DNA from: Gammaproteobacteria bacterium Ga0077554
GTDB taxonomy: Bacteria; Pseudomonadota; Gammaproteobacteria; Ga0077554; Ga007554
Length of the DNA stretch: 64,000 nt
Assembly (NCBI GenBank): GCA_001464585.1
Contig: LNFF01000040.1
Location: 7,267-71,266, forward strand
Reading direction: 5' to 3'
Below are positions 12,898 through 63,380 of this stretch, in pieces (positions within the stretch are counted from its first letter, which is position 1; each line of letters begins with the position of its first letter). A program made the translations under genes and the position numbers. Under the pieces are notes generated by a model. It had not been told where the DNA came from, made no database searches, and saw only the letters and a list, made by a program, of their open reading frames with translations.

Positions 12898-13012
12898 CCA
12901 GATTTCTCCCGGCAACTGCTCCTGCGTTGCTCTACCTTCCGCCATCCATGGCGGTCGCCTTCGGTCGAAATGACAGTGAGGCTGTCATCCCGAACGAAGA
13001 GAGGGATCTTGG
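12898..13012. repeat. MITE/REP-like nested palindromic element (family A, 'tgtcatttcgaccgaagg...cgaaatgaca', plus a 'gtcatcccgaacg' module)
   Basis: Near-identical to copies at 21885, 25775, 49845 and 57507. Confidence 0.8.
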
Positions 13013-13029: not shown

Positions 13030-13266
13030 ACTGATGTCAGGAATGCGTTTCTCTACGGGAAAACCCTGATTCCTCCTCACATAATCCCTGATGTATGGGA
13101 TGAAATACCCAATAGCCGCGATGTAAATAATTTGTAACAATTTTGTCACATATGTCACGAAGCCGTAATGTTGAAGTGGTTTAAGCAGCGAAGCCCAGAT
13201 ATTTTGATGGCTATTTATTCATTAAACTCTGGTTAATGAACTTCAGCAGCGTGATGTGTGAAACAT
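13030..13266 (+). repeat. direct repeat copy 1 (237 bp, ~90% identical to 22150..22385): duplicated promoter region of the DASS transporter gene
   Basis: Hand alignment of 13030..13266 against 22150..22385 shows only scattered mismatches. Confidence 0.85.
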
Positions 13267-13362
13267 AGTGTATAGCCTGAAAAAAATAATGGGAACTGTT
13301 GACATTATCAATAATTGGGATTAAATTCCCATATAACAAGGATTGAACAGGGTCAACCACCT

Positions 13363-13458
13363 TACCGGCTTATAGCCGGGGCATAGCAGCGGGGGTGATC
13401 ACGCTCACCATCTGGTTGGGGTTGCCTGAACTCAATACGCAGGCACGCCTGGCTTTCA
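13363..13458 (+). repeat. direct repeat copy 1b (~96 bp, ~85% identical to 22489..22584): duplicated 5' coding fragment of the DASS transporter
   Basis: Encodes '...TIWLGLPELNTQARLAFIT', matching residues about 30-50 of the 22419..23990 protein. Confidence 0.8.
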
Positions 13459-13475
13459 TCACGGAGGATACTATC

Positions 13476-22149: not shown

Positions 22150-22385
22150 ATGACATCAGCAATGAGTTTTCTACAGGAAAACCCTGATCTCCCTCCCCAC
22201 AATCCCTGACATATGGGATGAAATACCCAATAGGCGCGGCGTAAATAATTTGTAACAATTGTGTCACATATGTCACGAAGCCGTAATATTGAAGTGGTTT
22301 AAGCAGCAAAACCCAGATGTTTTGATGGACATTCATTCATTAAACTCTGGTCAATGAACTTCAGCAGCGTGATGTGTGAAACATA
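22150..22385 (+). repeat. direct repeat copy 2 (promoter region of the DASS transporter); a second block 22489..22584 matches 13363..13458
   Basis: See copy 1. Confidence 0.85.
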
Positions 22386-22418: not shown

Positions 22419-23990
22419 ATGATCATGCCTCAAGGAGTGAGCACCTTGCCAGCCACGGGGCACCCCGGCTGGCCCTTTAAGCAACATTACCGGCTCATAG
22501 CCGTGAGTGTAGCAGCGGTGGTGGTCACGCTCGCCATCTGGTTCGGGTTGCCGGAACTCAATACGCAGGCACGCCTGGCTTTCATTACTTTCAGCCTGGC
22601 GCTTATTGGATGGTGTTTCACCACGATCAATGACACCTACATCGCATTGGTGGCGGCGATAATTCCCAGCGTAATAGGTACTGGCGCGCCCAACGAATTT
22701 TTCGAGGCATTGGGTGACTCCATGATCTGGTTGCTGTTCGCGGCATTCATCATCGCCGCAGCGGTAAGTGCGTCCGGCCTCTCGCGCCGTTTGACGATGG
22801 CGGTGGTCAGTCGGGCGCACTCTGTAAATCAATTGTTTTATGCGTTGACCGCCGCGATTATCGCCACAGCTTTTGTCATTCCTTCCACATCCGGCCGCGC
22901 GGCGCTGATGTTGCCGATTTTCATTGCGCTGAGCACCACCATCAATGATGCGCGCATCACCAAAGCGTTGGCGCTGCTTTTCCCCACAGTGATCTTGTTG
23001 TCGGCGGTTGCGTCACTGATTGGTGCGGGCGCGCATCTGGTGACCGCCGATCTGCTGCTGCACATGACGGGACAGCGTATTGGCTTTTGGGAATGGATGG
23101 TATGGGGGCTACCGTTTGCGCTGGTGAGTTGTTTTGTTTCGACGTGGTTAATCCTGCGCCTGTTCCTGAACAAGGAAGAACAGCATAAGCCCGTGCAATT
23201 CAGCGTGGCGCAAATTGAAAAGGGCGACGATAGTTCTGATCCCAAGGCGTTTTCCAGGCAAGAGCGCTACATGTTAATACTGGTGGTGGCCCTGGTCACC
23301 TTGTGGGCCACGGAACCATTACACGGCGTCAACAATACCATGGTCGCCATCGTCGGAGCCTTGCTGGCGACGGCGCCAAAATTTGGCGTGTTTTCGTTCA
23401 TGGAGGCCGTCAAGAAAGTTGAGTGGAGCTTGCTGATTTTCCTGGCGGCGACCATGGAGATAGGCGAGTCCTTGATTGAGTCAGGTGGCGCCAAGTGGTT
23501 GGCGGATCACTTGTTCGAGATGTTGCAGGGTGGAGCCGCAACCTCTGCATGGCTTGTGGTTTCTGTTGTCGCGGCGGTTTCGTTGCTCTCGCATTTGCTC
23601 ATTAATTCGCGCACTGCGCGTTCCTCAGTGCTGGTTCCGCTGGTGATTTTGCTGGGCCTGTCGCTGGGGTTTCAACCGGCGGGGCTGGCGTTCCTCTCCA
23701 CTGCGGCAGCCGGTTTTTGTCTGACGTTGATGGTCAGCGCCAAACCCGTCGCCATGTTTGGCCAGATCGAGGCGTCCACCTATACCGCGCAGGATCTGTT
23801 GCGTTTGAGCGCTGTGCTGTTGCCGATACATTTTGTATTGCTCGTGGTATTCGCCTTTTTTGTCTGGCCTTATCTGGGGTTGGAGTTTCTGCCTGACCCG
23901 ACTGCAGTTCATCAGACACCGACGTGGACGGAATGGCAACCTTCACCCGCACAGACGTCGACGGTCGCTGTTGCTATGCAGGGTAAATAA
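22419..23990 (+). CDS. DASS/SLC13-type (ArsB/NhaD superfamily) anion or carboxylate transporter
   Basis: 523 aa with about 12-14 TM helices and an internal duplication pattern. GGAGAGG RBS. Confidence 0.65.
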   Translation: MIMPQGVSTLPATGHPGWPFKQHYRLIAVSVAAVVVTLAIWFGLPELNTQARLAFITFSLALIGWCFTTINDTYIALVAAIIPSVIGTGAPNEFFEALGDSMIWLLFAAFIIAAAVSASGLSRRLTMAVVSRAHSVNQLFYALTAAIIATAFVIPSTSGRAALMLPIFIALSTTINDARITKALALLFPTVILLSAVASLIGAGAHLVTADLLLHMTGQRIGFWEWMVWGLPFALVSCFVSTWLILRLFLNKEEQHKPVQFSVAQIEKGDDSSDPKAFSRQERYMLILVVALVTLWATEPLHGVNNTMVAIVGALLATAPKFGVFSFMEAVKKVEWSLLIFLAATMEIGESLIESGGAKWLADHLFEMLQGGAATSAWLVVSVVAAVSLLSHLLINSRTARSSVLVPLVILLGLSLGFQPAGLAFLSTAAAGFCLTLMVSAKPVAMFGQIEASTYTAQDLLRLSAVLLPIHFVLLVVFAFFVWPYLGLEFLPDPTAVHQTPTWTEWQPSPAQTSTVAVAMQGK

Positions 23991-24072
23991 AACCCGTAGC
24001 AAGCAAGCTGCGGGGTATTTCTCTGTCATTCCGAGCACCGCGAGGAATCTTAAGCAAGATCCCTCACTGCGC
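23991..24072. repeat. MITE-like element, family B ('gtcattccgagc..cgaggaatcttaag..agatccctcactgcg')
   Basis: Shares modules with 30243, 37690, 42058, 59956 and 63229. A related fragment 'gcgtagcgaggaacccaaacccaaagagattga' lies at 24095..24140 and again at 48205..48245. Confidence 0.75.
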
Positions 24073-24166
24073 CTGAAATGATAAGGGCGATGACAATAAA
24101 CCAAGCTACGGGGAAAGCGTAGCGAGGAACCCAAACCCAAAGAGATTGATCAAGGAGAATGTATTT

Positions 24167-30476: not shown

Positions 30477-31463
30477 TCACTCATTCTCAGGTGCGCCGAA
30501 CAAATATTCAAACACATGCTTCCCCATGCCACGGCGCATACTGCGGCGGAAGGAATGGCCGCAGCGTGGAAGCGTATGCACAGCATAACGGGTGTCCAGG
30601 CCCCGATCATGTGCGGCGGCGTTCATGGCCTCTGTCCAGCGCTGGCCGCGCGTCAGCCGATCATGCCCTTGCTGTTCGATCACGCGCGCGGCCTTGTTGA
30701 GCGCTGTGCCTGGTTTGATGTCGCGCTCGCCCACCACTACGCTGCCCGGCACGCGCAGAAAGCGCTCGGGTTCGAAGCGCACATCCGGAAGGTCGCGCCG
30801 CAGTTTGATACCGCGTGGATAGCGCAGAGTGGCGTCGGGAAAGGTATACCATCCTGCTGCACCGACAATGAATTTCGCCACGCACTCGGGATAGGCCATG
30901 GCATAGCGATGCACGAATTGTCCGCCGCCGGAGAAGCCAAACAGGTACAGCTTGTCCCAATGTGCATCAAGGGTGGCCGCTCCTGCGCATCCATGCACGG
31001 CGCCGCCAGTGAGCATGCGCACTTCGGCAAGAATCTGGTGCAATGCCCGATCGGCGCGTTCTCCCCGGCCCGCTCTCCCCATCTGCTGGTATTTGGCAAA
31101 ACGATCTTCAGGAAACAAGGGCGCAATCAGCACTACGCCATAGCGTTCCGCGAAGGGCGCGAACAGGCGGGCGTGTTCCTCGGCATTGCGGGAAATACCG
31201 TGAACGGTGACGAACACCCGCGCCGTGCATGGACGCACAAGTGTCGCGGGAGGCAGGATGCCGTGAGCGACCACCCCGGCGGCGCATGGCGGTCGCTCTT
31301 GTGCGCCGTCCATGCACGACGGCAGATACAGGAAATAATGCTGGCGCGGGTCGTCGCGCAGGGTACGAAGCTGAATGTCGGGTTTGTGAGCTGACATTGC
31401 CGCAGTTTCGGTGAGGGCGGCGGTGGCATTGTCGTGGCGCATGGGCATTCCTGTGTTGACCAC
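30477..31463 (-). CDS. alpha/beta-hydrolase (esterase/dienelactone-hydrolase-like) with an in-frame palindromic-element insertion
   Basis: 'VFVTVHGISRN' and the nucleophile elbow 'GFSGGG'. Residues encoded by 31226..31315 ('CMDGAQERPPCAAGVVAHGILPPATLVRPCT') correspond to a 90-bp palindrome. Confidence 0.6.
   Translation of the reverse strand: MVNTGMPMRHDNATAALTETAAMSAHKPDIQLRTLRDDPRQHYFLYLPSCMDGAQERPPCAAGVVAHGILPPATLVRPCTARVFVTVHGISRNAEEHARLFAPFAERYGVVLIAPLFPEDRFAKYQQMGRAGRGERADRALHQILAEVRMLTGGAVHGCAGAATLDAHWDKLYLFGFSGGGQFVHRYAMAYPECVAKFIVGAAGWYTFPDATLRYPRGIKLRRDLPDVRFEPERFLRVPGSVVVGERDIKPGTALNKAARVIEQQGHDRLTRGQRWTEAMNAAAHDRGLDTRYAVHTLPRCGHSFRRSMRRGMGKHVFEYLFGAPENE
31226..31315. repeat. 90-bp palindromic element (family C: 'tgcatggacgcacaagtgtcgcgggaggcaggatgccg.gagcgacc...ggtcgctcttgtgcgccgtccatgca') embedded in a CDS
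   Basis: Perfect terminal inverted repeats. Related copies at 52486..52560 and 54290..54345. Confidence 0.7.
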
Positions 31464-37689: not shown

Positions 37690-37802
37690 TACCCCGCAGC
37701 AAGCTGCGGGGTATTTCCATGTCATTCCGAGCATCGCGAGGAATCTTAAAAGATCCCTCACTGCGTTCGGGATGACAGTTATTCTTTACGGTCGGGATGA
37801 CA
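37690..37802. repeat. MITE-like element, family B, between urtA and urtB
   Basis: 'ccccgcagcaagctgcggggtatttccatgtcattccgagcatcgcgaggaatcttaaaagatccctcactgcgttcgggatgaca...gtcgggatgaca'. Confidence 0.8.
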
Positions 37803-37861
37803 ATACACGCAGCAAGAAACCCGAAGGGATTGAAAGAAACCCTGGGAAACTCAGCGCATTC

Positions 37862-44066: not shown

Positions 44067-45773
44067 CTAAAACAGAAAATAGCGTTGCGCCAAAGGCAGC
44101 ACCGCAAGTGGTTCACAAGTCAGCAATACCCCGTCGGCGCGCACTTCATAAGTCTGCGAGTCAACCTCCATGTGAGGCTGATAACTGTTGTGAATCAGAT
44201 CAGATTTACGAATCGTGCGGACGTTCTTTACGCTTACCAGTTTTTTTGTCAAACCATACGTTTTGTCTATTCCTGTATCCAACGCCGCCTGCGAAACAAA
44301 ATGCACGCTGGTCGCCGTGCGTGCTCCACCCAGAGCGCCAAACATGGTGCGGTAATGCACTGGCTGTGGCGTTGGAATCGACGCGTTAGGGTCGCCCATC
44401 GGCACGGCGGCGATCATGCCGCCCTTGATAATCATGGAGGGCTTGGCGCCAAAAAATGCCGGACGCCATAATACGATGTCCGCTAATTTACCTGCTTCTA
44501 TCGAACCGACTTCATGGCTGATGCCGTGGGTAATGGCGGGATTGATAGTGTATTTTGCGATATAGCGTTTGATGCGGAAATTATCGTGGCGTGAATTGTC
44601 TTCGGCCAGCGCGCCGCGTTGCACTTTCATCTTGTGCGCAGTTTGCCAGGTGCGGGTAATCACTTCACCGACGCGGCCCATCGCCTGTGAGTCCGACGAA
44701 ATCATGCTGAACGCACCCAGGTCATGCAGGATATCTTCAGCGGCAATGGTTTCGCGGCGTATCCGCGATTCAGCAAACGCCACATCTTCAGCAATCGCAG
44801 GGTCAAGGTGATGACATACCATCAACATATCAAGATGCTCGTCAACAGTATTGACAGTATAGGGGCGCGTGGGGTTAGTTGACGATGGCAGCACATTCGC
44901 TTCGCCGCACGCCTTGATAATATCCGGCGCATGACCACCGCCCGCTCCTTCAGTATGGTAGGTATGAATGGTGCGCCCTTTGAAAGCGGCGAGTGTGTCT
45001 TCGACAAATCCCGACTCATTCAAGGTATCGGTGTGGATGGCAATCTGCACATCGTATTTTTCAGCGACATTTAAGCAATTATCAATCGCTGCTGGCGTCG
45101 TGCCCCAATCTTCGTGCAGCTTCAAACCCATCGCGCCTGCTTCAATTTGCTCTTCCAGTGGTTCCGGCAGACTGGCGTTGCCTTTACCGAGAAAACCAAT
45201 ATTCATTGGCAATGCTTCAGCCGCTTGCAGCATGCGCTGCATATACCACGGCCCGGGCGTGCAGGTGGTGGCATTGGTGCCTGCTGCAGGGCCGGTGCCG
45301 CCACCGATCATGGTGGTCACACCCGACATCAGGGCGCCTTCAATTTGTTGTGGGCAGATGAAATGAATATGCGCATCTATCGCGCCGGGCGTGGCAATGA
45401 GCCCTTCACCGGCAATAATTTCTGTGCCTGGCCCAATCACAATCGTGACGTTGGGCTGAATGTCCGGGTTGCCGGCTTTACCTATGCCAGAAATACGGCC
45501 ATTTTTCAGGCCAATATCGGCTTTGACAATGCCCCAATAATCCATGATCAGCGCATTGGTGATAACCGTATCGGCCACTTCATGCGCGCAACGCTGGCCC
45601 TGGCCCATTCCGTCACGAATAACTTTGCCACCACCAAATTTAACTTCTTCACCGTAGACGGTGTGATCAACCTCTACTTCAATCCATAATTCGGTATCAC
45701 CTAAACGCACCCGGTCACCCACGGTGGGACCATACATTTCCATGTAAGCGCGGCGGTCAATTGTTTTCATCAT
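44067..45773 (-). CDS. ureC: urease alpha subunit UreC
   Basis: 568 aa with the urease active-site motifs ('MVCHHLD', 'GGGHAPD', carbamylated-Lys region). Confidence 0.95.
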
Positions 45774-49809: not shown

Positions 49810-49844
49810 GGATGTTACCTTAAGGAACCTGTGATTTATTAGCC

Positions 49845-50000
49845 TGTCATTTCGACCGCAGGCGACCGCCATGGATGGCGGAAGGTAGAGCAACGCAGGA
49901 GCAGTTGCCGGGAGAAATCCTTGTCTCGAACGTAAAGAATAACTGTCATCCCGAACGTAGTGAGGGATCTTCAGGATTTCTCCCTTCGGTCGAAATGACA
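49845..50000. repeat. composite MITE-like element (family A plus 'gtcatcccgaacgtagtgagggatcttcagg' module) between sdhB and sdhE
   Basis: Matches the 25775 and 12898 copies. Confidence 0.85.
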
Positions 50001-50015
50001 CATGTTAAAGTTTCG

Positions 50016-50717
50016 TTAAATCAAATGCTTGAGCATTATTTTCTTGATCTGTCCAATAGCTTTGGTGGGGTTTAATCCTTTGGGGCAGACATCGACGCAG
50101 TTCATGACGGTGTGGCAGCGGAACAGGCGATACGGGCCTTCCAGCGCGTCGAGGCGCTCGGCTGTGGCTTGATCACGGCTATCGGCGATAAAGCGATAGG
50201 CTTGCAATAACGCCGCCGGGCCGCGAAATTTATCGGGGTTCCACCAGAATGACGGACACGCGGTGGAGCAGCAGCCGCACAGGATACATTCGTACAGGCC
50301 GTCCAGTTTGTCGCGTTCCTGCGGGGTTTGCAGGTATTCCATTTCCGGCTCGGGGTCATGCACTACCAGGTAGGGTTTGATGGAACGGTATTGATGATAA
50401 AACTGGCTAAGATCCACCACCAGATCGCGGATCACCGGCATGCCGGGCAGCGGGCGAATTGTAATGGGCTGCTTGAGATCAACCAACGGCGTGGTGCATG
50501 CCAGTCCATTGCGGCCATTAATATTCATGGCATCGGAGCCACACACACCCTCGCCACAGGAGTGGCGAAACGTCAGACTTTCATCCTGCGCTTTAAGCAG
50601 GCGCAACGCTTCCAGCAACATCATGTCGGGCGTTACATCAGCGCCTGCCAGCTCCATGGTTTGCATGGTGGGCGCGGCGTCCGTTTCTGGATTATAGCGG
50701 TAAATGGAAAAACGCAT
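50016..50717 (-). CDS. sdhB: succinate dehydrogenase iron-sulfur subunit
   Basis: Cys clusters for the 2Fe-2S, 4Fe-4S and 3Fe-4S centres ('CGSC', 'CILCGCCSTACP', 'CHTVMNCVDVCPKGLNP'). Confidence 0.9.
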   Translation of the reverse strand: MRFSIYRYNPETDAAPTMQTMELAGADVTPDMMLLEALRLLKAQDESLTFRHSCGEGVCGSDAMNINGRNGLACTTPLVDLKQPITIRPLPGMPVIRDLVVDLSQFYHQYRSIKPYLVVHDPEPEMEYLQTPQERDKLDGLYECILCGCCSTACPSFWWNPDKFRGPAALLQAYRFIADSRDQATAERLDALEGPYRLFRCHTVMNCVDVCPKGLNPTKAIGQIKKIMLKHLI

Positions 50718-50718
50718 A

Positions 50719-52470
50719 TCAATATACCCTGGGCTTGGGAGAGAATCCTTCTACGGTTAGCGGCTTCATGCGCACGGGTTTGTAGTCCAGTGCGCCGCCT
50801 TTAAAAAATAAGCTGTGCTTCAGCCATTTCACGTCGTCACGCTGCGGATAATCAATGCGCATGTGCGCACCACGACTCTCTTTGCGCGCCAGCGCAGAGG
50901 CCACGGTGGCCAGCGCAAGATCCACCAGATTTTCCAGTTCAAATGCTTCGATACGCGCGGTGTTGAATATTTTGCTATGATCCTTAAGATAAACATTCTG
51001 CAAACGCTGCTCTATTTGCAGCACTTTTTCCAACCCCACGCGCAACACATCTTCGGTGCGAAACACACCGCAATAGTGATCCATGACGGCTTTTAATTCG
51101 TTGCGTAAACCATCCACCGTTTCGCCTTCACCGCGCCGCTCCCAACGCGCAAGATGCGTCAATGCGGCGTCGATGCTGTGTTGTGAAGCGATACGGCTAT
51201 AGCGGTTTTCCTTGAGGTAGTCGATGATGTGATTACCCGCCGCACGGCCAAACACTACGATATCGAGCAATGAATTACCGCCCAGACGATTCGCGCCATG
51301 CACTGACACGCACGCGCATTCGCCCACGGCATACAAACCCGGCACCGGCTCTTCCGCGCCTTGCTGCTGAGGCACGACCACTTGCCCAAAACGATTGGTG
51401 GGTATGCCGCCCATGGTGTAATGCGCGGTGGGAAAGATCGGGATCGGCGCATCAATCGGGTCGATGTGCAGAAACGTCATCACCATATCGCGTATGCCGG
51501 GCAGACGTTTGCGTATCACGTCTGCACCCAGATGATCGACCTTCAGCAGAATGTGATCTTTGTTGGCACCGCAGCCGCGCCCTTCGTGAATTTCAGTGGC
51601 GACCGCGCGGCTCACTACGTCACGGCTGGCTAAATCTTTGGCGTTGGGCGCGTAGCGTTCCATGAAGCGTTCGCCATTACCATTGATAAGATAACCGCCT
51701 TCGCCGCGCACCGCTTCGGAAATCAACATGCCTTTGCCTGCGATACCCGTCGGGTGGAACTGGAAAAATTCCATGTCTTGCAGCGGAATGCCCGCCCGTA
51801 GCGCCATCGCCATGCCGTCACCGGTATTGATGCGCGCATTGGTGTTGGTGCGGAATAATTGCCCGGCACCACCGGTGGCGATGAGGGTGGTCTTGGCCTG
51901 AATTATCAGCGGTTCGCCGGTTTCAATTTCCAGCACCAGTGCACCGAGGATGTAGCCTTCATCATCCTTGATCAGGTCTATCGCAAAATATTCATCAAAA
52001 AAATGGGTTTTGGCGCGGATGTTTTGTTGATACAGCGCGTGCAGAATGGCGTGGCCCGTGCGATCTGCCGCCGCGCAGGTGCGCGCCGCTTGCGCGCCAC
52101 CGAAATTCTGGCTTTGCCCGCCAAACGGGCGCTGATAAATTTTGCCGTTATCCAGGCGTGAAAACGGCACGCCGATATGTTCCAGTTCAACCACCAGGCG
52201 CGGCGCAGCATGGCACATGTATTCAATGGCATCTTGATCACCGAGAAAATCTCCGCCTTTCACGGTGTCGTACATGTGCCAATGCCAGTTGTCAGGCAAT
52301 ACGTTGGCGAGCGCGGCATTCATGCCGCCTTGTGCGGCCACGGTGTGCGAACGGGTCGGAAATACTTTTGATACCACGGCGACATTGGCATCGGCTTGCG
52401 CCAGTTGCAACGCAGCGCGCAAACCACCGCCACCGGCACCGATGACAAGCGTGTCAAATTTACGCATCGG
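50719..52470 (-). CDS. sdhA: succinate dehydrogenase flavoprotein subunit (start at 'MTIPMRKFDTLVIGAGGGG'; the track ORF is extended upstream by a repeat element)
   Basis: FAD-binding 'VIGAGGAG'-type motif and the covalent-FAD His region ('RSHTVAAQGG'). Confidence 0.9.
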   Translation of the reverse strand, partial: PMRKFDTLVIGAGGGGLRAALQLAQADANVAVVSKVFPTRSHTVAAQGGMNAALANVLPDNWHWHMYDTVKGGDFLGDQDAIEYMCHAAPRLVVELEHIGVPFSRLDNGKIYQRPFGGQSQNFGGAQAARTCAAADRTGHAILHALYQQNIRAKTHFFDEYFAIDLIKDDEGYILGALVLEIETGEPLIIQAKTTLIATGGAGQLFRTNTNARINTGDGMAMALRAGIPLQDMEFFQFHPTGIAGKGMLISEAVRGEGGYLINGNGERFMERYAPNAKDLASRDVVSRAVATEIHEGRGCGANKDHILLKVDHLGADVIRKRLPGIRDMVMTFLHIDPIDAPIPIFPTAHYTMGGIPTNRFGQVVVPQQQGAEEPVPGLYAVGECACVSVHGANRLGGNSLLDIVVFGRAAGNHIIDYLKENRYSRIASQHSIDAALTHLARWERRGEGETVDGLRNELKAVMDHYCGVFRTEDVLRVGLEKVLQIEQRLQNVYLKDHSKIFNTARIEAFELENLVDLALATVASALARKESRGAHMRIDYPQRDDVKWLKHSLFFKGGALDYKPVRMKPLTVEGFSPKPRVY

Positions 52471-52484
52471 GATTGTCATATTGT

Positions 52485-52892
52485 TTACGCCGTGCATGGA
52501 TGCACAAGTGTTGCGAGAGGCAGGATGCCGGAAGCGACCGTTACGATAGATAGCGGGGTCGGTATCAGCATGAGAACACGCAATACCCACAACCCCATGG
52601 CAAACAGCCCCAGTGCAACAGACGTCAGCAATATAAAACGGATCACTGGTGGGCGCGCATAATCCATAATCACATCGCGCAACCCCACCCAGGCGTGCAT
52701 CAGCAGCGCGGCAAAAAATACGCTGGTGGCGACGGCGATAAACGGCAAGCCCATCCACTCCCGCCATGCCGGGTACGACGTCGGCGCATCCAGCAGCAGA
52801 TACAGGCCGAACATTACAATATAAACGGCCAAATATACCGCGCTGACACGTTGCATCAACCAGGCGCGCGAACCGTGGGCGCGCCAGCTCAT
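52485..52892 (-). CDS. sdhD: succinate dehydrogenase membrane anchor subunit SdhD, with a repeat-encoded C-terminal tail
   Basis: 3 TM helices homologous to E. coli SdhD. The last ~20 codons lie within the family-C palindromic element. Confidence 0.75.
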   Translation of the reverse strand: MSWRAHGSRAWLMQRVSAVYLAVYIVMFGLYLLLDAPTSYPAWREWMGLPFIAVATSVFFAALLMHAWVGLRDVIMDYARPPVIRFILLTSVALGLFAMGLWVLRVLMLIPTPLSIVTVASGILPLATLVHPCTA

Positions 52893-53278
52893 AGCAGCAC
52901 CAGCAAGGCGATGATAGGCACGATCAATCCACCCACGTTAATGATCCATGCGCTGCGCCGCGCGCTGTCACGCCCAACGCCGATGTCGGCATCAATCAGC
53001 AGAAAACGGATACCCGCCAGCATGTGATGCGCCAGCCCCCACACCATCAGCACCGCCATAAACTTGACGAAAGGATGCCGCAAAATCTCCAGCGCCTGCG
53101 CATAACCCTGCTCATTGCGCAAAGATAAATCAAGCAGATAAATTAAAAATGGGATCAGCACGCACATCATCACGCCACTGACACGGTGCGCGAACGACAG
53201 CACCGCCACCACCGGCATGCGGATTTGCAGCAGATTCATAAAGATAGGACGATTTTTTTTATTCATTGAGCTATTCAT
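52889..53278 (-). CDS. sdhC: succinate dehydrogenase cytochrome b556 subunit SdhC (start at 'MNSSMNKKNRP')
   Basis: Alignable to E. coli SdhC ('RPVNL...HRVSGV'). 4-nt overlap with sdhD. Confidence 0.8.
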   Translation of the reverse strand: MNSSMNKKNRPIFMNLLQIRMPVVAVLSFAHRVSGVMMCVLIPFLIYLLDLSLRNEQGYAQALEILRHPFVKFMAVLMVWGLAHHMLAGIRFLLIDADIGVGRDSARRSAWIINVGGLIVPIIALLVLL

Positions 53279-53396
53279 CGACGCCTGATTTATCTGGCTT
53301 TTAATGGAGCCAGCCCGTAGTCCTGCTAATGTTATAATGAACAACCGTGCCAACACTAACATTTCCCGTGCAACACTAACAGGTTATACCACGACC

Positions 53397-54500
53397 ATGA
53401 ACGCTGACTGGAACACTTTTTTGCAACAGGCGGGCGCTGCCATTATAGATGGGGTCGTGGCAGGCCGCGTTCGTGACTTTGGCCAGCCCGTCGACGAGCT
53501 ACAGGCGCCGAATAACGGCAATATCCTCGCTGACGTATCACACATGGGTTTGATTGCAGTGCAGGGCGCAGATGCTGCAACCTTCCTGCAAGGCCAGCTT
53601 ACCAATGACATCCGCGAAGTATCTGCAACACACAGCCAGATCAGCGCCTATTGCAGCCCCAAGGGGCGCATGTTGGCCTGCATGCGCATCTTTATGCGTG
53701 ATGACACGTATTACCTGGGCCTGCCGCGCGATATCCTCGATGCCACCTTGCAGCGTTTGCGCATGTTTGTGCTGCGCGCCAAGGTCACGCTCAGCGATGC
53801 CAGCGATACCCTGGTGTATATCGGGTATGCCGGTGAGCGCGCTGCGGCGACACTGGAGGTGGCTCTGGGCGCCATCCCCGCAAACGTCAACGATGTCACC
53901 CAGGGCAACGGACTGACAGTGCTGCGCCTGCCTGGCTCAGTGCCGCGCTTTGGCATCATCGGCGAAGTTGCAGCAATACAAACCCTGTGGAACACGCTAC
54001 GTGTCAGCGCCCAACCAGTAGGCGCGAACGTGTGGGATTTGCTCGATATCCGCGCCGGCATCCCCACCGTCTACGCCGCCACCCGCGATGCGTTTGTGCC
54101 ACAAATGGCGAATCTCGATACGATCGGCGGCATCAGTTTCAAAAAGGGCTGTTACACCGGCCAGGAAATTGTAGCGCGCATGCATTACCTGGGCACGCTC
54201 AAACGCCGCATGTTCCTGGCGAAAGTTATAGCGGACGTGGCGCCCCAGCCTGGCGATGCGTTATATGCCTCGGGCACAGACGACGCACAGGGATGTGTTA
54301 GTGTCGCAGGAGGCAGGATGCCGGGAGCGGCCAACGTGCAAAGCATCGGCACTGTCGTCACAGCACAGCGCGTGTCACGCGGGGAATATGCAGCATTGGC
54401 GGTAGTGGATATTAAAAGCGCAGCAACGGGTCAGATCCACCTGTACACAGTGACGGGCACCGCGCTCACTTTTATTCCCCTGCCTTATACGCCTGAATAA
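53397..54500 (+). CDS. ygfZ: folate-binding Fe-S cluster repair/tRNA-modification protein YgfZ
   Basis: 'KGCYTGQEIVARMHYLG' signature. Divergent from sdhC/sdhE-ygfX as in enterobacteria. Confidence 0.8.
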   Translation: MNADWNTFLQQAGAAIIDGVVAGRVRDFGQPVDELQAPNNGNILADVSHMGLIAVQGADAATFLQGQLTNDIREVSATHSQISAYCSPKGRMLACMRIFMRDDTYYLGLPRDILDATLQRLRMFVLRAKVTLSDASDTLVYIGYAGERAAATLEVALGAIPANVNDVTQGNGLTVLRLPGSVPRFGIIGEVAAIQTLWNTLRVSAQPVGANVWDLLDIRAGIPTVYAATRDAFVPQMANLDTIGGISFKKGCYTGQEIVARMHYLGTLKRRMFLAKVIADVAPQPGDALYASGTDDAQGCVSVAGGRMPGAANVQSIGTVVTAQRVSRGEYAALAVVDIKSAATGQIHLYTVTGTALTFIPLPYTPE

Positions 54501-57506: not shown

Positions 57507-57564
57507 TGTCATTTCGACCGAAGGCGACCGCCATCCATGGCGGTCGCCTTCGGTCGAAATGACA
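57507..57564. repeat. 58-bp perfect hairpin element (family A core)
   Basis: 'tgtcatttcgaccgaaggcgaccgccat|ccatggcggtcgccttcggtcgaaatgaca', 3' of the aspA-like gene. Confidence 0.85.
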
Positions 57565-59938: not shown

Positions 59939-59955
59939 ACGGAGGATGATTATTT

Positions 59956-60011
59956 TGTCATTCCGAGCGTAGTGAGGAATCTTAAGATGTCTCACTGCGT
60001 TCGACATGACA
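59956..60011. repeat. MITE-like element, family B short form
   Basis: 'tgtcattccgagcgtagtgaggaatcttaagatgtctcactgcgttcgacatgaca'. Confidence 0.8.
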
Positions 60012-60038
60012 GGGTGTTGCACCTCGAATGGCGTAAAG

Positions 60039-60834: not shown

Positions 60835-63144
60835 CTACGCCCGGATTTTGCGGCGGCGCAGCAGCAGTGCGCCGGGCGCGCCTAGCAACAGGAGATCAAG
60901 AAAACCAAAGGCACCGCCGCCACCGTCACTGGTGCCAAAGTTAGTACCGGGCGCAACCGCTGTCACCACGCATGCACCGCTTACGCAGCTATCTAGTGAA
61001 CCATTATTACCCGGCAAATAATCGCTGGGTGAAGTCACATCCGCCCTGGCGCGCATTTCTATAGTTCTATTGTTCAGAAGTGGGTCAGTGGGTGTCACAG
61101 TAATAAAAACCGTAAAACTTGCGCCCACTGCCAAATTAGGCGTGCTGCAATTAACCGGATTGGCGGTGGTAACGCACACCACCGACACCAGGTTAGTAGC
61201 ATCAGGAACTACCAAGGCAGAAGTCCCCAACGGTATCTGCGCCGTTAGCGTCACTCCTTGGGCAGCGCCGGGGCCTTTATTGGTCACCACCAATGTGTAT
61301 GTCACCGGGTTGTCCAGTGATACATTAGGCGTATTACCGGTCACGGCCACTTCTAAGTCCACCCTTCCCACTGCCTCAACACCATCCGTTTCCACTGCGC
61401 CGATGTCACACACGGTATTATTGCCCGGCCGACCATAGAGGCGTTGATCAAATTTATTGATACAGGTTCCCGCACCGATTGCCGCACTAGGCGCCTGCGG
61501 CACAAAAACAGCGGGATGGGCAGTAGCATTATCTGAAGTAACTAATAACAGGGTATCTGGTGAATTATTGCCATTTTCACCCAGCGTTCCCAAATTAGGA
61601 GAGGCGTTAATTATATCGGTCGCAGTCAAGCCACAGCTATTACCATTTTCCAGGTTATTACCCCCCGACATCATCTTGGCCGCAGCAGTAATAGCAGTAC
61701 CGACCTCATTATAGCCACTCATACAATTGAGCTGGCCAGACACTGGCGCAGTATTGCCTCCAATAATAGTATTATGAATGGCGTTATTCAATTTCGCTGC
61801 ATTTGCTGGATTAGGATCCACGCTCACAAACATTTCTTCGCCGCTGCCCTCCGCCGTATTTCCGCTAAGCGTGACATTGGTCAACGTCAAGGTGCGGCCA
61901 TTGAAAATTCCACCCCCCGCTCTGAAGGCGTTGTTCCCGGTGATCGTGCTATTGGTCACTGTGACATCACCAGGCGCACGGTTATAGATACCACCGCCGT
62001 CTGCACTGGCGCCATTACCATTTGCTTTATTTCCGCTGATGGTGCTGTAGATGATCTCCGCACCGCCCTGGTTGAGAATACCGCCGCCGGTATTGCTATC
62101 CACGACGCTGGAGATCACGCGCAAACTGCCGGTCACAGAGCTCTGGCCCGCCCCATCCAGATTAGACACACCACCGCCCTCAAGCGCCGTGTTGAGGCGA
62201 ACAATGGTACGCGTGAGCGTGACGGCGCCGCCATGATTACTGATACCGCCACCCGCGTTATTCCCGGCATTGGTGTTGCTGAGCACGATACTTTCATTAA
62301 TGGTGAGCTTGCCCGTACCAGTGGCCGCACCATTACTGTTTTGAATACCGCCACCGAAAGGACGCCCGCTATTGTTCTTAACTGTGGTTTTGTTAAGCGT
62401 CATAATGCCGCTATTGAAAATGCCGCCGCCGCCAATAAACGCGCCCACCGCATTAGCAGTAACATTCAATATTGAGTTATTACTGATGATGCAATTATTC
62501 ACCACCATTTGCGCGTTGCTGCCATTATAAAGCCCGCCGCCGCTATAACTGCCACTAATAGTAGCGTGGCCAATCGTGTTGTTGGTGATGGTGCAATTTC
62601 CCAGCGTCAACCAGCCGTTAGCATTATTAATCGCGCCACCGTCTGCCCGTACTACCCCATTCCGAATGGTCACATTGTTAATATTGACAGTATTCCTGCC
62701 CACAATATGGAAAACACGGTCAAGCCCGCCACCATCAATAATAGTGGCATTACCATTAATAGTAAGGCACGGAGTATTAATGCTGACACTGGGGCACGTG
62801 CCGCGAATATCCAGGTCACCTTGTGCGGCATTGTCTTCATTCGTGCCCGGAATACTCAGGGTGTACGTGGTGGCGAGCAAACCAATGACGATATTGGTAT
62901 CGCGGGTCGCATCAGTGCGATTCATCAAGTCGTTGGCCTGCTGAATGGCGGCGCGCAGGGTGCATGCACCCCCCGCACCCTGACCCTCACACAAGCCATC
63001 GGCAAGATTGGTGTCCGGGGCATCGATCTGAGAATTTACACTAAAGGTCACGGCCTGCGCCGGAGCAGTCAGCAATAACCCTGTGAACAATACCGGTAAC
63101 ATGAATGCGGTATGATAACCACGTAATAATTTGTAATTAAACAT
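60835..63144 (-). CDS. large secreted right-handed beta-helix repeat protein with a CSLREA-like N-terminal motif and a GlyGly-CTERM-like sorting tail
   Basis: Signal peptide. 'CTLRAAIQQAN' is CSLREA-like. More than 20 'N.TI..N.A..GGGI.N' parallel beta-helix repeats. The C-terminus 'GGGGAFGFLDLLLLGAPGALLLRRRKIRA' is Gly-run, then TM helix, then basic cluster. Confidence 0.65.
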   Translation of the reverse strand: MFNYKLLRGYHTAFMLPVLFTGLLLTAPAQAVTFSVNSQIDAPDTNLADGLCEGQGAGGACTLRAAIQQANDLMNRTDATRDTNIVIGLLATTYTLSIPGTNEDNAAQGDLDIRGTCPSVSINTPCLTINGNATIIDGGGLDRVFHIVGRNTVNINNVTIRNGVVRADGGAINNANGWLTLGNCTITNNTIGHATISGSYSGGGLYNGSNAQMVVNNCIISNNSILNVTANAVGAFIGGGGIFNSGIMTLNKTTVKNNSGRPFGGGIQNSNGAATGTGKLTINESIVLSNTNAGNNAGGGISNHGGAVTLTRTIVRLNTALEGGGVSNLDGAGQSSVTGSLRVISSVVDSNTGGGILNQGGAEIIYSTISGNKANGNGASADGGGIYNRAPGDVTVTNSTITGNNAFRAGGGIFNGRTLTLTNVTLSGNTAEGSGEEMFVSVDPNPANAAKLNNAIHNTIIGGNTAPVSGQLNCMSGYNEVGTAITAAAKMMSGGNNLENGNSCGLTATDIINASPNLGTLGENGNNSPDTLLLVTSDNATAHPAVFVPQAPSAAIGAGTCINKFDQRLYGRPGNNTVCDIGAVETDGVEAVGRVDLEVAVTGNTPNVSLDNPVTYTLVVTNKGPGAAQGVTLTAQIPLGTSALVVPDATNLVSVVCVTTANPVNCSTPNLAVGASFTVFITVTPTDPLLNNRTIEMRARADVTSPSDYLPGNNGSLDSCVSGACVVTAVAPGTNFGTSDGGGGAFGFLDLLLLGAPGALLLRRRKIRA

Positions 63145-63228
63145 TGCTTGCTCTCCTCACGACGGACGTGCTTATGCAGGCCGCATTACCCGATATCCCT
63201 GTCAGGACGGTGTTTTTATGGATATTTC

Positions 63229-63380
63229 TGTCATGCCGAATGTAGTGAGGGATCTTAAAAGATCTCTCAAAGATCTCTCACATTCGTTCGAGACTCGAGA
63301 CAAGGATTTCTCACTACGTTCGAAATGACAACGCCTGGCTACGCTCGAAATGACAATGCGTCACTTTGTTCGTAACAACA
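63229..63380. repeat. cluster of MITE-like modules (families A and B)
   Basis: 'tgtcatgccgaatgtagtgagggatcttaaaagatctctcaaagatctctcacattcgttcgagactcgagacaaggatttctcactacgttcgaaatgaca..cgctcgaaatgaca'. Confidence 0.8.

What the first reader, a model, noticed from the sequence alone, without database searches (positions are those of the whole stretch)
52470..52560. Family-C palindromic element at the sdhD-sdhA junction rewrites the SdhD C-terminus
A copy of the 'gtgcatggatgcacaagtgttgcgagaggcaggatgccggaagcgacc' element sits between the conserved end of SdhD (around '...GLWVLRVL') and the sdhA start (ATG at 52470, 'MTIPMRKFDTLVIGAGGGG'). The sdhD reading frame continues about 20 codons through the element ('MLIPTPLSIVTVASGILPLATLVHPCTA') before reaching a stop. 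The same element gives the ORF track a spurious ~115-codon N-terminal extension on sdhA. Insertion into the tightly coupled sdhCDAB operon without disrupting it suggests selection for frame-neutral insertions.
Basis: seen in the sequence. Interest (0 to 1): 0.6.

Follow-up and report, generated by a model that had tools for sequence, protein, structure and literature searches.

The report
Repeat element extends SdhD's tail
A 52-base copy of a widespread hairpin-bearing repeat sits at the very end of the sdhD gene, so the protein gains an 18-residue unstructured tail that close relatives lack; this is a new example of a known behaviour, small repeats that survive inside genes.

Summary
One 52-nt repeat unit lies at 52488-52539 (minus strand), between the native end of sdhD and the sdhA start. 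The sdhD frame reads through it: SdhD is 135 aa and ends VTVASGILPLATLVHPCTA. Relatives 91-93% identical are 117 aa and end ...LSIS. Other relatives carry one, two tandem, nested or partly deleted units at the same place.

- The sdhA ATG is at 52479, not 52470.
- The native SdhD end is ...PTPLSI, not ...VLRVL.
- This copy is only weakly palindromic.

The unit belongs to a large family: more than 118 metagenome stretches matched a pattern for it before the scan hit its limit. Tandem copies repeat every 51 nt (17 codons). The window variant has no stop codon in any of six frames. Two hairpins show compensatory changes.

The other two window copies are in-frame insertions in ygfZ and in a hydrolase gene. 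Metagenome copies sit inside dnaE, rsmB, truD, dapE, argA, vgrG and yhdP. A unit also extends hisG at the hisG-hisD junction.

It behaves like Rickettsia palindromic elements, intragenic REPs and mycobacterial MIRUs, but it fails the tested sequence and structure features of each. How it spreads is unknown. I rate it a new member of a known kind, of moderate interest.

The parts
52488..52539 (-). One 52-nt unit of the repeat family ('family C'): GGTCGCTTCCGGCATCCTGCCTCTCGCAACACTTGTGCATCCATGCACGGCG
   Evidence: Exact pattern match. nhmmer E = 2e-17. It is row 1 of the 98-unit alignment A4. An identical 52/52 copy sits at the same site in an independent MAG, L009.
52510..52538 (-). Hairpin 1: outer stem GTCGC/GCAAC (one C-A mismatch in this copy) enclosing the mini-hairpin GGCA-TCC-TGCC
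   Evidence: Alignment columns 2-30 of A4. Three of five outer pairs and one of four inner pairs show compensatory changes across the family.
52492..52505 (-). Hairpin 2: GTGCA-TCCA-TGCAC, ending 13 nt upstream of the sdhA ATG
   Evidence: Alignment columns 35-48 of A4. Three of five pairs show compensatory changes. The hairpin is predicted in the RNA fold of the junction.
52485..52892 (-). sdhD ORF, 135 aa (Pfam Sdh_cyt)
   Evidence: Homologues aligned.
52488..52544 (-). Codons 117-135 of sdhD (VTVASGILPLATLVHPCTA), the added C-terminal tail. All but the first codon and two bases of the second are encoded by the unit.
   Evidence: The tail is absent from the 117-aa relatives. The DNA gap is shown. 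pLDDT is below 50 for residues 111-135.
52485..52487 (-). Current sdhD stop codon TAA. It is host-derived spacer sequence, followed by the 5-nt spacer ACAAT (52480-52484).
   Evidence: The same TAAACAA is present in the empty allele L001.
50719..52479 (-). sdhA, 586 aa. The true start is the ATG at 52479-52477.
   Evidence: The MTIP... start is conserved in L001, L005 and L009. Pfam FAD_binding_2 and Succ_DH_flav_C match.
52480..52923 (-). Spurious open stretch in the sdhA frame (148 codons to the upstream TGA at 52924-52926). It passes through the unit as ...NGRFRHPASRNTCASMHGVNN.
31221..31272 (-). Second copy of the unit. It is an in-frame 17-aa insertion (VAHGILPPATLVRPCTA) in an alpha/beta-hydrolase gene (ORF 30477..31463, minus strand). 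With an adjacent inverted partial unit it forms a hairpin of about 100 nt.
   Evidence: The insertion is absent from homologues 79-82% identical. Fold -65.5 kcal/mol, z = -3.28.
54281..54332 (-). Third copy of the unit, antisense inside ygfZ (ORF 53304..54500, plus strand). It adds 17 aa (...DDAQGCVSVAGGRMPGA...).
   Evidence: There is an exact 17-aa / 51-nt gap in the closest MAG, L009.
52889..53266 (-). sdhC (probable 125-aa form), operon context
   Evidence: The gene is 125 aa in L001, L005 and L008.
50016..50717 (-). sdhB, operon context

Best explanation
A 52-nt unit of a dispersed, hairpin-bearing repeat family became lodged at the 3' end of sdhD, just upstream of sdhA.

The effect on SdhD:
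- The unit carries no stop codon.
- In this lineage the old stop (TAA) now lies out of frame at the unit's left edge.
- Ribosomes therefore read through the unit and stop at a pre-existing TAA 5 nt before the sdhA ATG.
- SdhD gains a 19-residue hydrophobic tail with no confidently predicted structure.

The tail is most likely a tolerated passenger, not a functional domain.

Inferred, not shown: reading through the unit keeps termination of sdhD close to the sdhA start, and lets ribosomes melt hairpin 2, which ends 13 nt upstream of the ATG. If so, translational coupling in sdhCDAB survives the insertion, much as proposed for mycobacterial MIRUs.

The family as a whole tolerates coding regions:
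- Its tandem period is 51 nt, which is 17 codons.
- Its units are mostly free of stop codons.
- Copies are found in frame inside many housekeeping genes.

How it is copied is unknown. The conserved, covarying hairpins point to recognition of a folded single strand of DNA or RNA.
For: Shown:
- The unit is repeated far beyond chance.
- SdhD relatives 91-93% identical lack the tail (117 aa). Others have one unit, two tandem units (exactly 102 nt inserted between ATT and GGAATATCATGA in L004 compared with L010), nested units or partly deleted units.
- An independent MAG (L009) has the identical unit at the same site, so this is not an assembly artefact.
- An out-of-frame TAA sits at the unit's left edge in every filled allele of this clade (window, L007, L008, L009). 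It aligns with the in-frame stop of the empty allele.
- The window variant has no stop in six frames. 54 of 98 units are stop-free, against 9.1 +/- 3.0 for shuffles.
- Hairpins: 96.9% of cells are paired and 7 of 14 pairs show changes on both sides. None of 500 shuffles reached this on four of the five measures (the count of further pair types did not stand out). Slid controls are 18-54% paired.
- In-frame insertions in real genes: ygfZ at two independent sites and in both orientations; a hydrolase; VgrG, YhdP, ArgA, the DnaE finger domain, TruD, RsmB, and DapE with two tandem units. A unit extends HisG at the hisG-hisD junction.
- At least five reading frames are used across hosts, so the peptide is not what is conserved.
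- AlphaFold gives the SdhD core pLDDT 85-97 and residues 111-135 below 50.
- The unit is 52/52 identical between the window and L009, while the 300-nt flanks are 89-90% identical.
Against: - No transposase, terminal inverted repeat or consistent target-site duplication was found, so 'mobile' rests on distribution and on filled/empty polymorphism only.
- The same site is filled in three SdhD clades that also contain empty alleles. That fits either an insertion hotspot or one old insertion with later precise losses; I could not tell which.
- The coupling argument is untested. The junction RNA is not unusually stable (z = -0.40), and the unit is open in all three sense frames, so an open tail does not by itself show selection.
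- The high conservation of the unit relative to its flanks could also mean the unit has a function here.
- The covariation sample was gathered with a fixed pattern, and the units are related by descent. Both inflate the apparent support.
Confidence: 0.85

Rival explanations
1. The unit has been put to use at this site as an RNA element. Its hairpins, sitting just upstream of the sdhA ribosome-binding region, would tune sdhA translation or protect the sdhCD / sdhAB mRNA segments, as described for some REP and Correia-type repeats in operons.
For: - Hairpin 2 ends 13 nt upstream of the sdhA ATG.
- The unit is 52/52 identical between the window and L009 while the flanks are about 90% identical.
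- The hairpins covary across the family.
- A unit also lies at the hisG-hisD junction.
Against: - Close relatives do without it.
- Copy number and composition at the site vary freely: one, two, nested or partly deleted units.
- This copy has a mismatch in stem 1, and the region does not fold better than shuffles.
- Most family copies sit inside unrelated genes in either orientation.
Confidence: 0.12
2. The tail is a selected protein feature of SdhD, for example an extra membrane-embedded segment or a His/Cys ligand.
For: - The tail is hydrophobic (mean Kyte-Doolittle +1.41).
- The same frame (...GILPxATLVHPCT...) is used in SdhD, the hydrolase, L011 YgfZ and HisG.
Against: - The tail is absent from relatives 91-93% identical, and it varies in length and content.
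- The same DNA is read in at least five different frames in other hosts.
- There is no confident structure: pLDDT is below 50.
- The partly deleted version in P0011 still makes a viable ORF.
Confidence: 0.05
3. The tail comes from a local artefact or a local event: an assembly chimera, a sequencing frameshift, or slippage-generated tandem DNA unrelated to any dispersed family.
For: The source is a metagenome contig (LNFM01), and repeats are a known cause of misassembly.
Against: - The identical junction is present in an independent MAG (L009) and in other assemblies (P0001, P0121, P0122).
- The same unit occurs at many unlinked loci and in many samples.
Confidence: 0.02

Closest known systems
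Rickettsia palindromic elements (RPE; Ogata et al. 2000, as summarised in PMC3184786 and PMC3733652)
   Same: A dispersed hairpin-forming repeat found in frame inside many protein-coding genes, including replication and RNA-modification genes. The host ORF stays intact, and filled and empty alleles occur among relatives.
   Different: - RPE-1 is about 105-146 bp. This unit is 52 nt and repeats in tandem every 51 nt.
- The hosts here are uncultured environmental 'Gammaproteobacteria' MAGs and metagenome contigs, not an obligate intracellular alphaproteobacterium.
- RPE-4 and RPE-6 carry a CGTC tag with 8-9 bp stems that begin with AT. This unit does not.
Intragenic GTAG-/CGTC-tagged REPs (Di Nocera et al. 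2013, PMC3733652)
   Same: Small stem-loop repeats. Some lie inside genes (dnaE, uvrA, uvrB, recB and others) as single units, dimers or clusters encoding 20-80 aa. About 10% of the intragenic ones sit at ORF ends.
   Different: - No GTAG tag, and no 5' CGTC tag followed by a stem beginning with AT.
- Nested and adjacent helices rather than one.
- Copies are not depleted from long ORFs, whereas REPs are mostly extragenic.
- None of the encoded peptides appear in that paper's supplementary list.
Mycobacterial interspersed repetitive units (MIRU; Supply et al. 1997, via PMC3184786 and PMC12548453)
   Same: Units of about 40-100 bp, in tandem with copy number varying between strains. They sit at junctions between genes of an operon, with an open frame phased to the neighbouring stop and start codons, which is thought to keep translational coupling.
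   Different: - A MIRU carries its own short ORF. Here the frame is fused to the upstream gene.
- Many copies of this family appear to be internal to genes.
- The sequence and the hosts are unrelated.
Repeats that extend the 3' ends of genes (Delihas 2007; Croucher 2011; Hot 2011, cited in PMC3184786)
   Same: A repeat with an open frame fuses to the end of a gene and rewrites its C-terminus.
   Different: Those are MITE-like elements of about 100-170 bp with terminal inverted repeats, found in enterobacteria, pneumococcus and Bordetella.

Membership tests
RPE (Rickettsia palindromic elements) | In-frame insertion inside protein-coding genes with the host ORF preserved | tested here: met
   SdhD, YgfZ at two sites, a hydrolase, and DnaE, RsmB, TruD, DapE, ArgA, VgrG and YhdP.
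RPE (Rickettsia palindromic elements) | Long palindrome of about 105-146 bp (size from the table in PMC3184786) | tested here: not met
   The unit is 52 nt. The sdhD copy does not fold better than shuffles (z = -0.40). Only the inverted pair at 31205-31335 forms a hairpin of about 100 nt.
RPE (Rickettsia palindromic elements) | Sequence similarity to an RPE consensus; Rickettsia host | not tested
   No RPE sequence was compared. The hosts are environmental 'Gammaproteobacteria' MAGs.
REP (GTAG / CGTC super-families, PMC3733652) | A single 20-40 bp stem-loop with a terminal GTAG or CGTC tag. CGTC types have 8-9 bp stems beginning with AT. | tested here: not met
   The A4 consensus is GGTCGCTCCCGGCATCCTGCCTCCCGCGACACTTGTGCATCCnTGCACGTCG. 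It has three helices of 4-5 bp and no GTAG. The only CGTC lies 3' of hairpin 2, not 5' of a stem beginning with AT.
REP (GTAG / CGTC super-families, PMC3733652) | Predominantly extragenic location | tested here: not met
   50% of units have at least 100 open codons on both sides, against 46% of random 52-nt windows in the same loci. Nine of ten spanning ORFs tested carry Pfam domains.
REP (GTAG / CGTC super-families, PMC3733652) | Association with a RAYT (IS200/IS605-type tyrosine transposase) gene flanked by the repeats | not tested
   No complete genome was available. The ORFs between inverted unit pairs in L045, L086, L105 and L118 were only read by eye; none was scanned against Pfam.
MIRU | Units of about 40-100 bp in tandem, with copy number variable among close relatives | tested here: met
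   One unit in the window and L009, two in L004, none in L001, L010 and L012. Tandem arrays with a 51-nt period in L044, L089 and L128.
MIRU | Sits between genes of an operon, with an open frame phased to the neighbours' stop and start codons | tested here: inconclusive
   True at sdhD-sdhA (stop 5 nt before the ATG, or an ATGA overlap in L004 and L005) and at hisG-hisD. However, the frame is fused to the upstream gene, and many copies appear to be internal to genes.
MIRU | Mycobacterial host and MIRU sequence | tested here: not met
   The hosts are proteobacterial MAGs. The MIRU sequence itself was not compared.
MITE | Terminal inverted repeats and a target-site duplication | tested here: not met
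   The unit ends (GGTCGC... and ...CACGGCG) are not inverted repeats. The clean filled/empty pair L004/L010 shows no duplication. Only short, ambiguous direct repeats (CGGG, CGTAA) appear at other sites.
Rfam families | Match to any curated RNA family | tested here: not met
   cmscan of 30000-58000 in E-value mode found nothing at any of the three copies.

The most novel reading that the evidence does not exclude
The unit could belong to an undescribed, widespread family of two-hairpin elements that is built to live inside ORFs: a 17-codon tandem period, stop-free in up to six frames, and no depletion from coding sequence. It would colonise even essential genes (dnaE, dnaX-like, recN-like, rsmB) in environmental bacteria. 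It would spread by a mechanism that leaves no inverted terminal repeats or target duplications, possibly through an HUH-type enzyme acting on folded single-stranded DNA. The sdhD-sdhA junction would then be a recurrent landing site where read-through of the unit is selected to preserve translational coupling.
Probability: 0.35. Interest if true: 0.6.

Novelty: new member of a known kind. Interest (0 to 1): 0.42.

Why it matters
For annotation:
- Repeats like this give SdhD a false-looking but real tail.
- They give sdhA a false N-terminal extension.
- They add 17-aa blocks to many housekeeping proteins in MAGs.
- Gene callers and homology pipelines should expect all three.

For biology:
- The family offers many natural filled/empty allele pairs in uncultured environmental bacteria.
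- These pairs could show how small repeats enter ORFs, why some protein sites tolerate them, and whether read-through of a repeat at an operon junction preserves coupling.
- These questions have so far been studied mainly in Rickettsia and Mycobacterium.

Tried and rejected
- A GC3-based coding classifier for the metagenome copies. It called only 15% of random windows coding, so it was too insensitive. I replaced it with an open-frame comparison against random windows and Pfam checks.
- Rfam search. Nothing matched at the element. The only strong hit was 5_ureB_sRNA at 45335-45617, which is unrelated.
- A search for target-site duplications. Only short, ambiguous direct repeats turned up (CGTAA at sdhD, CGGG at ygfZ), and none in the clean L004/L010 pair.
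- Removing the unit together with one CGTAA copy would fuse sdhD in frame to sdhA. A simple insertion-plus-duplication history is therefore unlikely.
- A search for a transposase between inverted unit pairs in L045, L086, L105 and L118. I only read these ORFs by eye, and most of the sequence lies in ordinary-looking host genes. None was scanned against Pfam.
- The supplementary tables of Di Nocera et al. 2013, searched for the unit-encoded peptides. No match.
- G-U versus A-C asymmetry in the stems, as a way to tell RNA-level from DNA-level selection. I considered it but did not pursue it, because only one variable position (column 39) carries most of the signal.
- Identification of the organism beyond 'Gammaproteobacteria bacterium' MAG / LNFM01 contig. 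Not resolved.
Full report
**1. What is at the coordinates**

The sdhCDAB operon lies on the minus strand:
- sdhC: 52889..53266/53362
- sdhD: 52485..52892
- sdhA: 50719..52479
- sdhB: 50016..50717

The repeat finder groups it with two diverged copies at 31221-31272 and 54281-54332 (family D11). A profile built from the copies recovers all three with E-values from 2e-17 to 1e-13.

The full unit is 52 nt, at 52488-52539 on the minus strand: GGTCGCTTCCGGCATCCTGCCTCTCGCAACACTTGTGCATCCATGCACGGCG.

The sdhD frame runs through it. SdhD is 135 aa and ends ...MLIPTPLSIVTVASGILPLATLVHPCTA, with its stop TAA at 52487-52485. The conserved sdhA start (MTIPMRKFDT) is the ATG at 52479-52477, 5 nt after that stop, not at 52470.

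The sdhA frame also passes through the unit without a stop. It stays open for 148 codons upstream. That is why the ORF table lists a 682-aa 'sdhA' instead of the real 586 aa.

**2. Is the tail native?**

It is not. A search with SdhD found 109 homologues. In the alignment:
- The three closest tail-less relatives (P0006-P0008, 91-93% identical) are 117 aa and end ...LSIS.
- More distant SdhD proteins (106-116 aa) end shortly after the conserved GLWVLR(V/I)L motif, within about 3-5 residues.
- Native SdhD therefore runs to ...PTPLSI. The added tail is 19 residues replacing one Ser.

DNA of an empty allele (L001-L003) aligns with the window on both sides of a gap that coincides with the unit.

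Other relatives are filled differently at the same place:
- L009, an independent MAG with 95% identical SdhD, has exactly the window's arrangement.
- L004 has two tandem units. This is precisely 102 nt inserted between ATT and GGAATATCATGA, compared with the empty L010.
- L005 has an inverted pair that includes a unit of another subfamily.
- L008 has a different repeat nested in the loop of hairpin 2.
- L007 is more complex still (173 aa).
- P0011 keeps only a partly deleted remnant.

In every filled allele the sdhD frame stays open to within 5 nt of the sdhA ATG, or overlaps it as ATGA.

Three SdhD clades each contain both filled and empty alleles. The site is therefore either an insertion hotspot or an old insertion that has been lost cleanly several times. 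I could not decide between these.

In the window's clade an out-of-frame TAA sits at the unit's left edge (TCT ATC G|TAA|C GG...). It aligns with the in-frame stop of the empty allele (TCT ATT TCA TAA). This suggests, but does not prove, a two-step history:
- The unit first landed in the 11-nt spacer after the stop.
- A 2-nt loss then shifted the frame so that translation runs through the unit.

**3. What the unit is**

The family consensus is GGTCGCTCCCGGCATCCTGCCTCCCGCGACACTTGTGCATCCnTGCACGTCG (alignment A4, 98 distinct units).

Tandem arrays have a 51-nt period, which is 17 codons (L004, L044, L089, L128).

The unit has three helices:
- an outer 5-bp stem (GTCGC/GCGAC);
- a 4-bp mini-hairpin enclosed by it (GGCA-TCC-TGCC);
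- a second hairpin (GTGCA-TCCN-TGCAC).

Pair counts for this structure:
- 96.9% of cells are standard pairs.
- 7 of 14 pairs show changes on both sides, for example GTCGC/GCGAC to GCCGC/GCGGC to GTCAC/GTGAC, and GTGCA/TGCAC to GCACA/TGTGC.
- None of 500 shuffles reached the observed values on four of the five measures. The fifth, the count of further pair types, did not stand out (129 of 500).
- Slid controls are 18-54% paired.

Caveats: the sample was gathered with a fixed pattern, and the units are related by descent. Both flatter these numbers.

The sdhD copy has one mismatch in the outer stem, and the junction RNA as a whole is no more stable than shuffles (z = -0.40). The copy at 31221, with an adjacent inverted partial unit, folds into a hairpin of about 100 nt (-65.5 kcal/mol, z = -3.28).

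No Rfam family matches.

**4. The family lives inside genes**

All three window copies are in-frame insertions that vary among close relatives.

- *ygfZ.* The window and L010 carry a 17-aa block (DDAQGCVSVAGGRMPGA, unit antisense). L009 lacks it exactly (51 nt), and L012 has it partly deleted. L011 has a separate 20-aa insertion at another ygfZ site with the unit in sense orientation (APGILPPTALVHPCTS...).
- *Alpha/beta-hydrolase.* The gene at 30477..31463 has a 17-aa block (VAHGILPPATLVRPCTA). Homologues 79-82% identical lack it, and two others have it. The gene also has a second variable site.

ORFs spanning metagenome copies were tested against Pfam, and nine of ten are recognisable proteins:
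- VgrG
- a molybdopterin enzyme
- YhdP
- an FAD-dependent protein
- ArgA
- DnaE (within the finger domain)
- TruD
- RsmB
- DapE, with two tandem units

In L086 a unit lengthens HisG just before hisD, which is a second case of tail rewriting at an operon junction. A Dabb-domain protein in the same locus has an internal insert.

At least five of the six reading frames are used in different hosts. What is conserved is therefore the DNA or RNA, not a peptide.

Stop codons:
- The window variant (ACTTGT) has no stop in any frame.
- 54 of 98 units are stop-free, against 9.1 +/- 3.0 for composition-matched shuffles.
- The ACTAGT variant has a TAG in two frames.

Units are not depleted from long open frames. 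50% have at least 100 open codons on both sides, against 46% of random 52-nt windows in the same loci. This is a crude measure, but it is the opposite of what extragenic REPs would give.

**5. Effect on SdhD and on the operon**

AlphaFold, run with the homologue alignment, gives the three-helix core pLDDT 85-97 and residues 111-135 below 50. The tail is hydrophobic (mean Kyte-Doolittle +1.41).

From the solved E. coli complex II (my own knowledge, not tested here), the SdhD C-terminus faces the periplasm. A floppy tail there is plausibly harmless.

Translational coupling falls off with stop-to-start distance and is sensitive to structure near the downstream start (review PMC12548453). I therefore infer that reading through the unit is what keeps sdhA translation coupled. 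Ribosomes would melt hairpin 2, which ends 13 nt upstream of the ATG, and terminate 5 nt from it.

This step is inference, for two reasons:
- The unit is open in all three sense frames, so an open tail alone is not evidence of selection.
- The unit is 52/52 identical between the window and L009 while the 300-nt flanks are 89-90% identical. That could reflect constraint on the unit, gene conversion among copies, or recent independent arrival.

**6. Comparison with known systems**

Repeats fused in frame to genes are well documented, both internally and as 3' extensions (Ogata 2000; Delihas 2007; Croucher 2011; Hot 2011, summarised in PMC3184786).

Di Nocera et al. (PMC3733652) catalogued GTAG- and CGTC-tagged REPs. 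Their set includes intragenic ones in dnaE, uvrA, uvrB and recB, and they showed that RPE-4 and RPE-6 are CGTC REPs.

How the present unit compares:
- It lacks both tags in the defining position and has several helices rather than one, so it fails the REP definition.
- Its encoded peptides are not in that paper's supplementary tables.
- It is too short for RPE-1.
- It has no terminal inverted repeats and no consistent target duplication, so it is not MITE-like.
- It resembles MIRUs in unit size, tandem variability and position at operon junctions, but it is fused to the upstream ORF and is unrelated in sequence and host.

It works like these elements without being a member of any of them. No transposase was identified, and the mobilisation mechanism remains open.

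**7. Verdict**

The thing itself is an ordinary kind of event: a small repeat tolerated at a gene end. It involves a repeat family that I did not find in the papers I searched and that is unusually at home inside ORFs. I rate it a new member of a known kind, of moderate interest.

The source is an LNFM01 metagenome contig of 317,587 nt from an uncultured 'Gammaproteobacteria' lineage.

Noticed in passing
window 49823-50010 (just downstream of sdhB); also 12982-13010, 24023-24084, 37719-37809, 59955-60018, 63228-63362: These are dense arrays of other short hairpin repeats beginning TGTCAT(T/C)CCGA...GGGA(A/T)(T/C). They fit the TGTC/CGTC-tagged REP description in PMC3733652 (tag, stem starting with AT, short loop). 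Units often occur in inverted pairs and are interleaved with a third family (GCGACCGCCATGGATGGCGGAAGGTAGAGCAACGCAGGAGCAGTTGCCGGGAG).
   Followed up: partly
window 57507-57564: A perfect 58-nt palindrome, TGTCATTTCGACCGAAGGCGACCGCCAT|CC|ATGGCGGTCGCCTTCGGTCGAAATGACA (arms 28 nt, 100% complementary). Its tip, CCGCCATCCATGGCGG, has the same CATCCATG loop motif as hairpin 2 of the element studied.
   Followed up: no
L008 1537-1640; L063, L073, L101, L023: These are mosaic forms. In L008 a unit of the CCGCC...GGCGG family sits inside the loop of hairpin 2 of the sdhD unit. Elsewhere, family units are cut off at hairpin 2 and continue into other repeat types. This suggests that the repeats insert into, or recombine at, each other's hairpins.
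   Followed up: partly
L086 404-1138 and 1123-1608: hisG is lengthened by a unit (…AEAVAAPGILPPTALTRPCAAEMKEQKLTKTAKMPK*) immediately before hisD. A Dabb-domain protein in the same locus carries an internal insert of about 50 aa made of unit sequence read antisense.
   Followed up: partly
window 30984-31002 and alignment A5 columns 156-204: This is a second variable site in the hydrolase gene. The window has GAVHGCAGAATLDAHW, a hairpin-2 fragment read antisense. Homologue P0127 has a 33-aa insert there, and most homologues have nothing.
   Followed up: partly
window 45335-45617 (+): A strong Rfam hit to 5_ureB_sRNA (RF02514, 104 bits, E = 1e-26). It presumably reflects a urease ureB region rather than a Helicobacter-type sRNA.
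   Followed up: no
window 13049-13267 / 22167-22385 and 13384-13462 / 22510-22588: Two segments are repeated about 9.1 kb apart at 89-92% identity. They are probably paralogous genes; both are flanked by repeat arrays.
   Followed up: no
window 61893-62543: Degenerate direct repeats of about 27-32 nt (…ATTGAAAATGCCGCCGCCGC…) recur at spacings of 102-342 nt. They look like a repeat-containing coding region.
   Followed up: no
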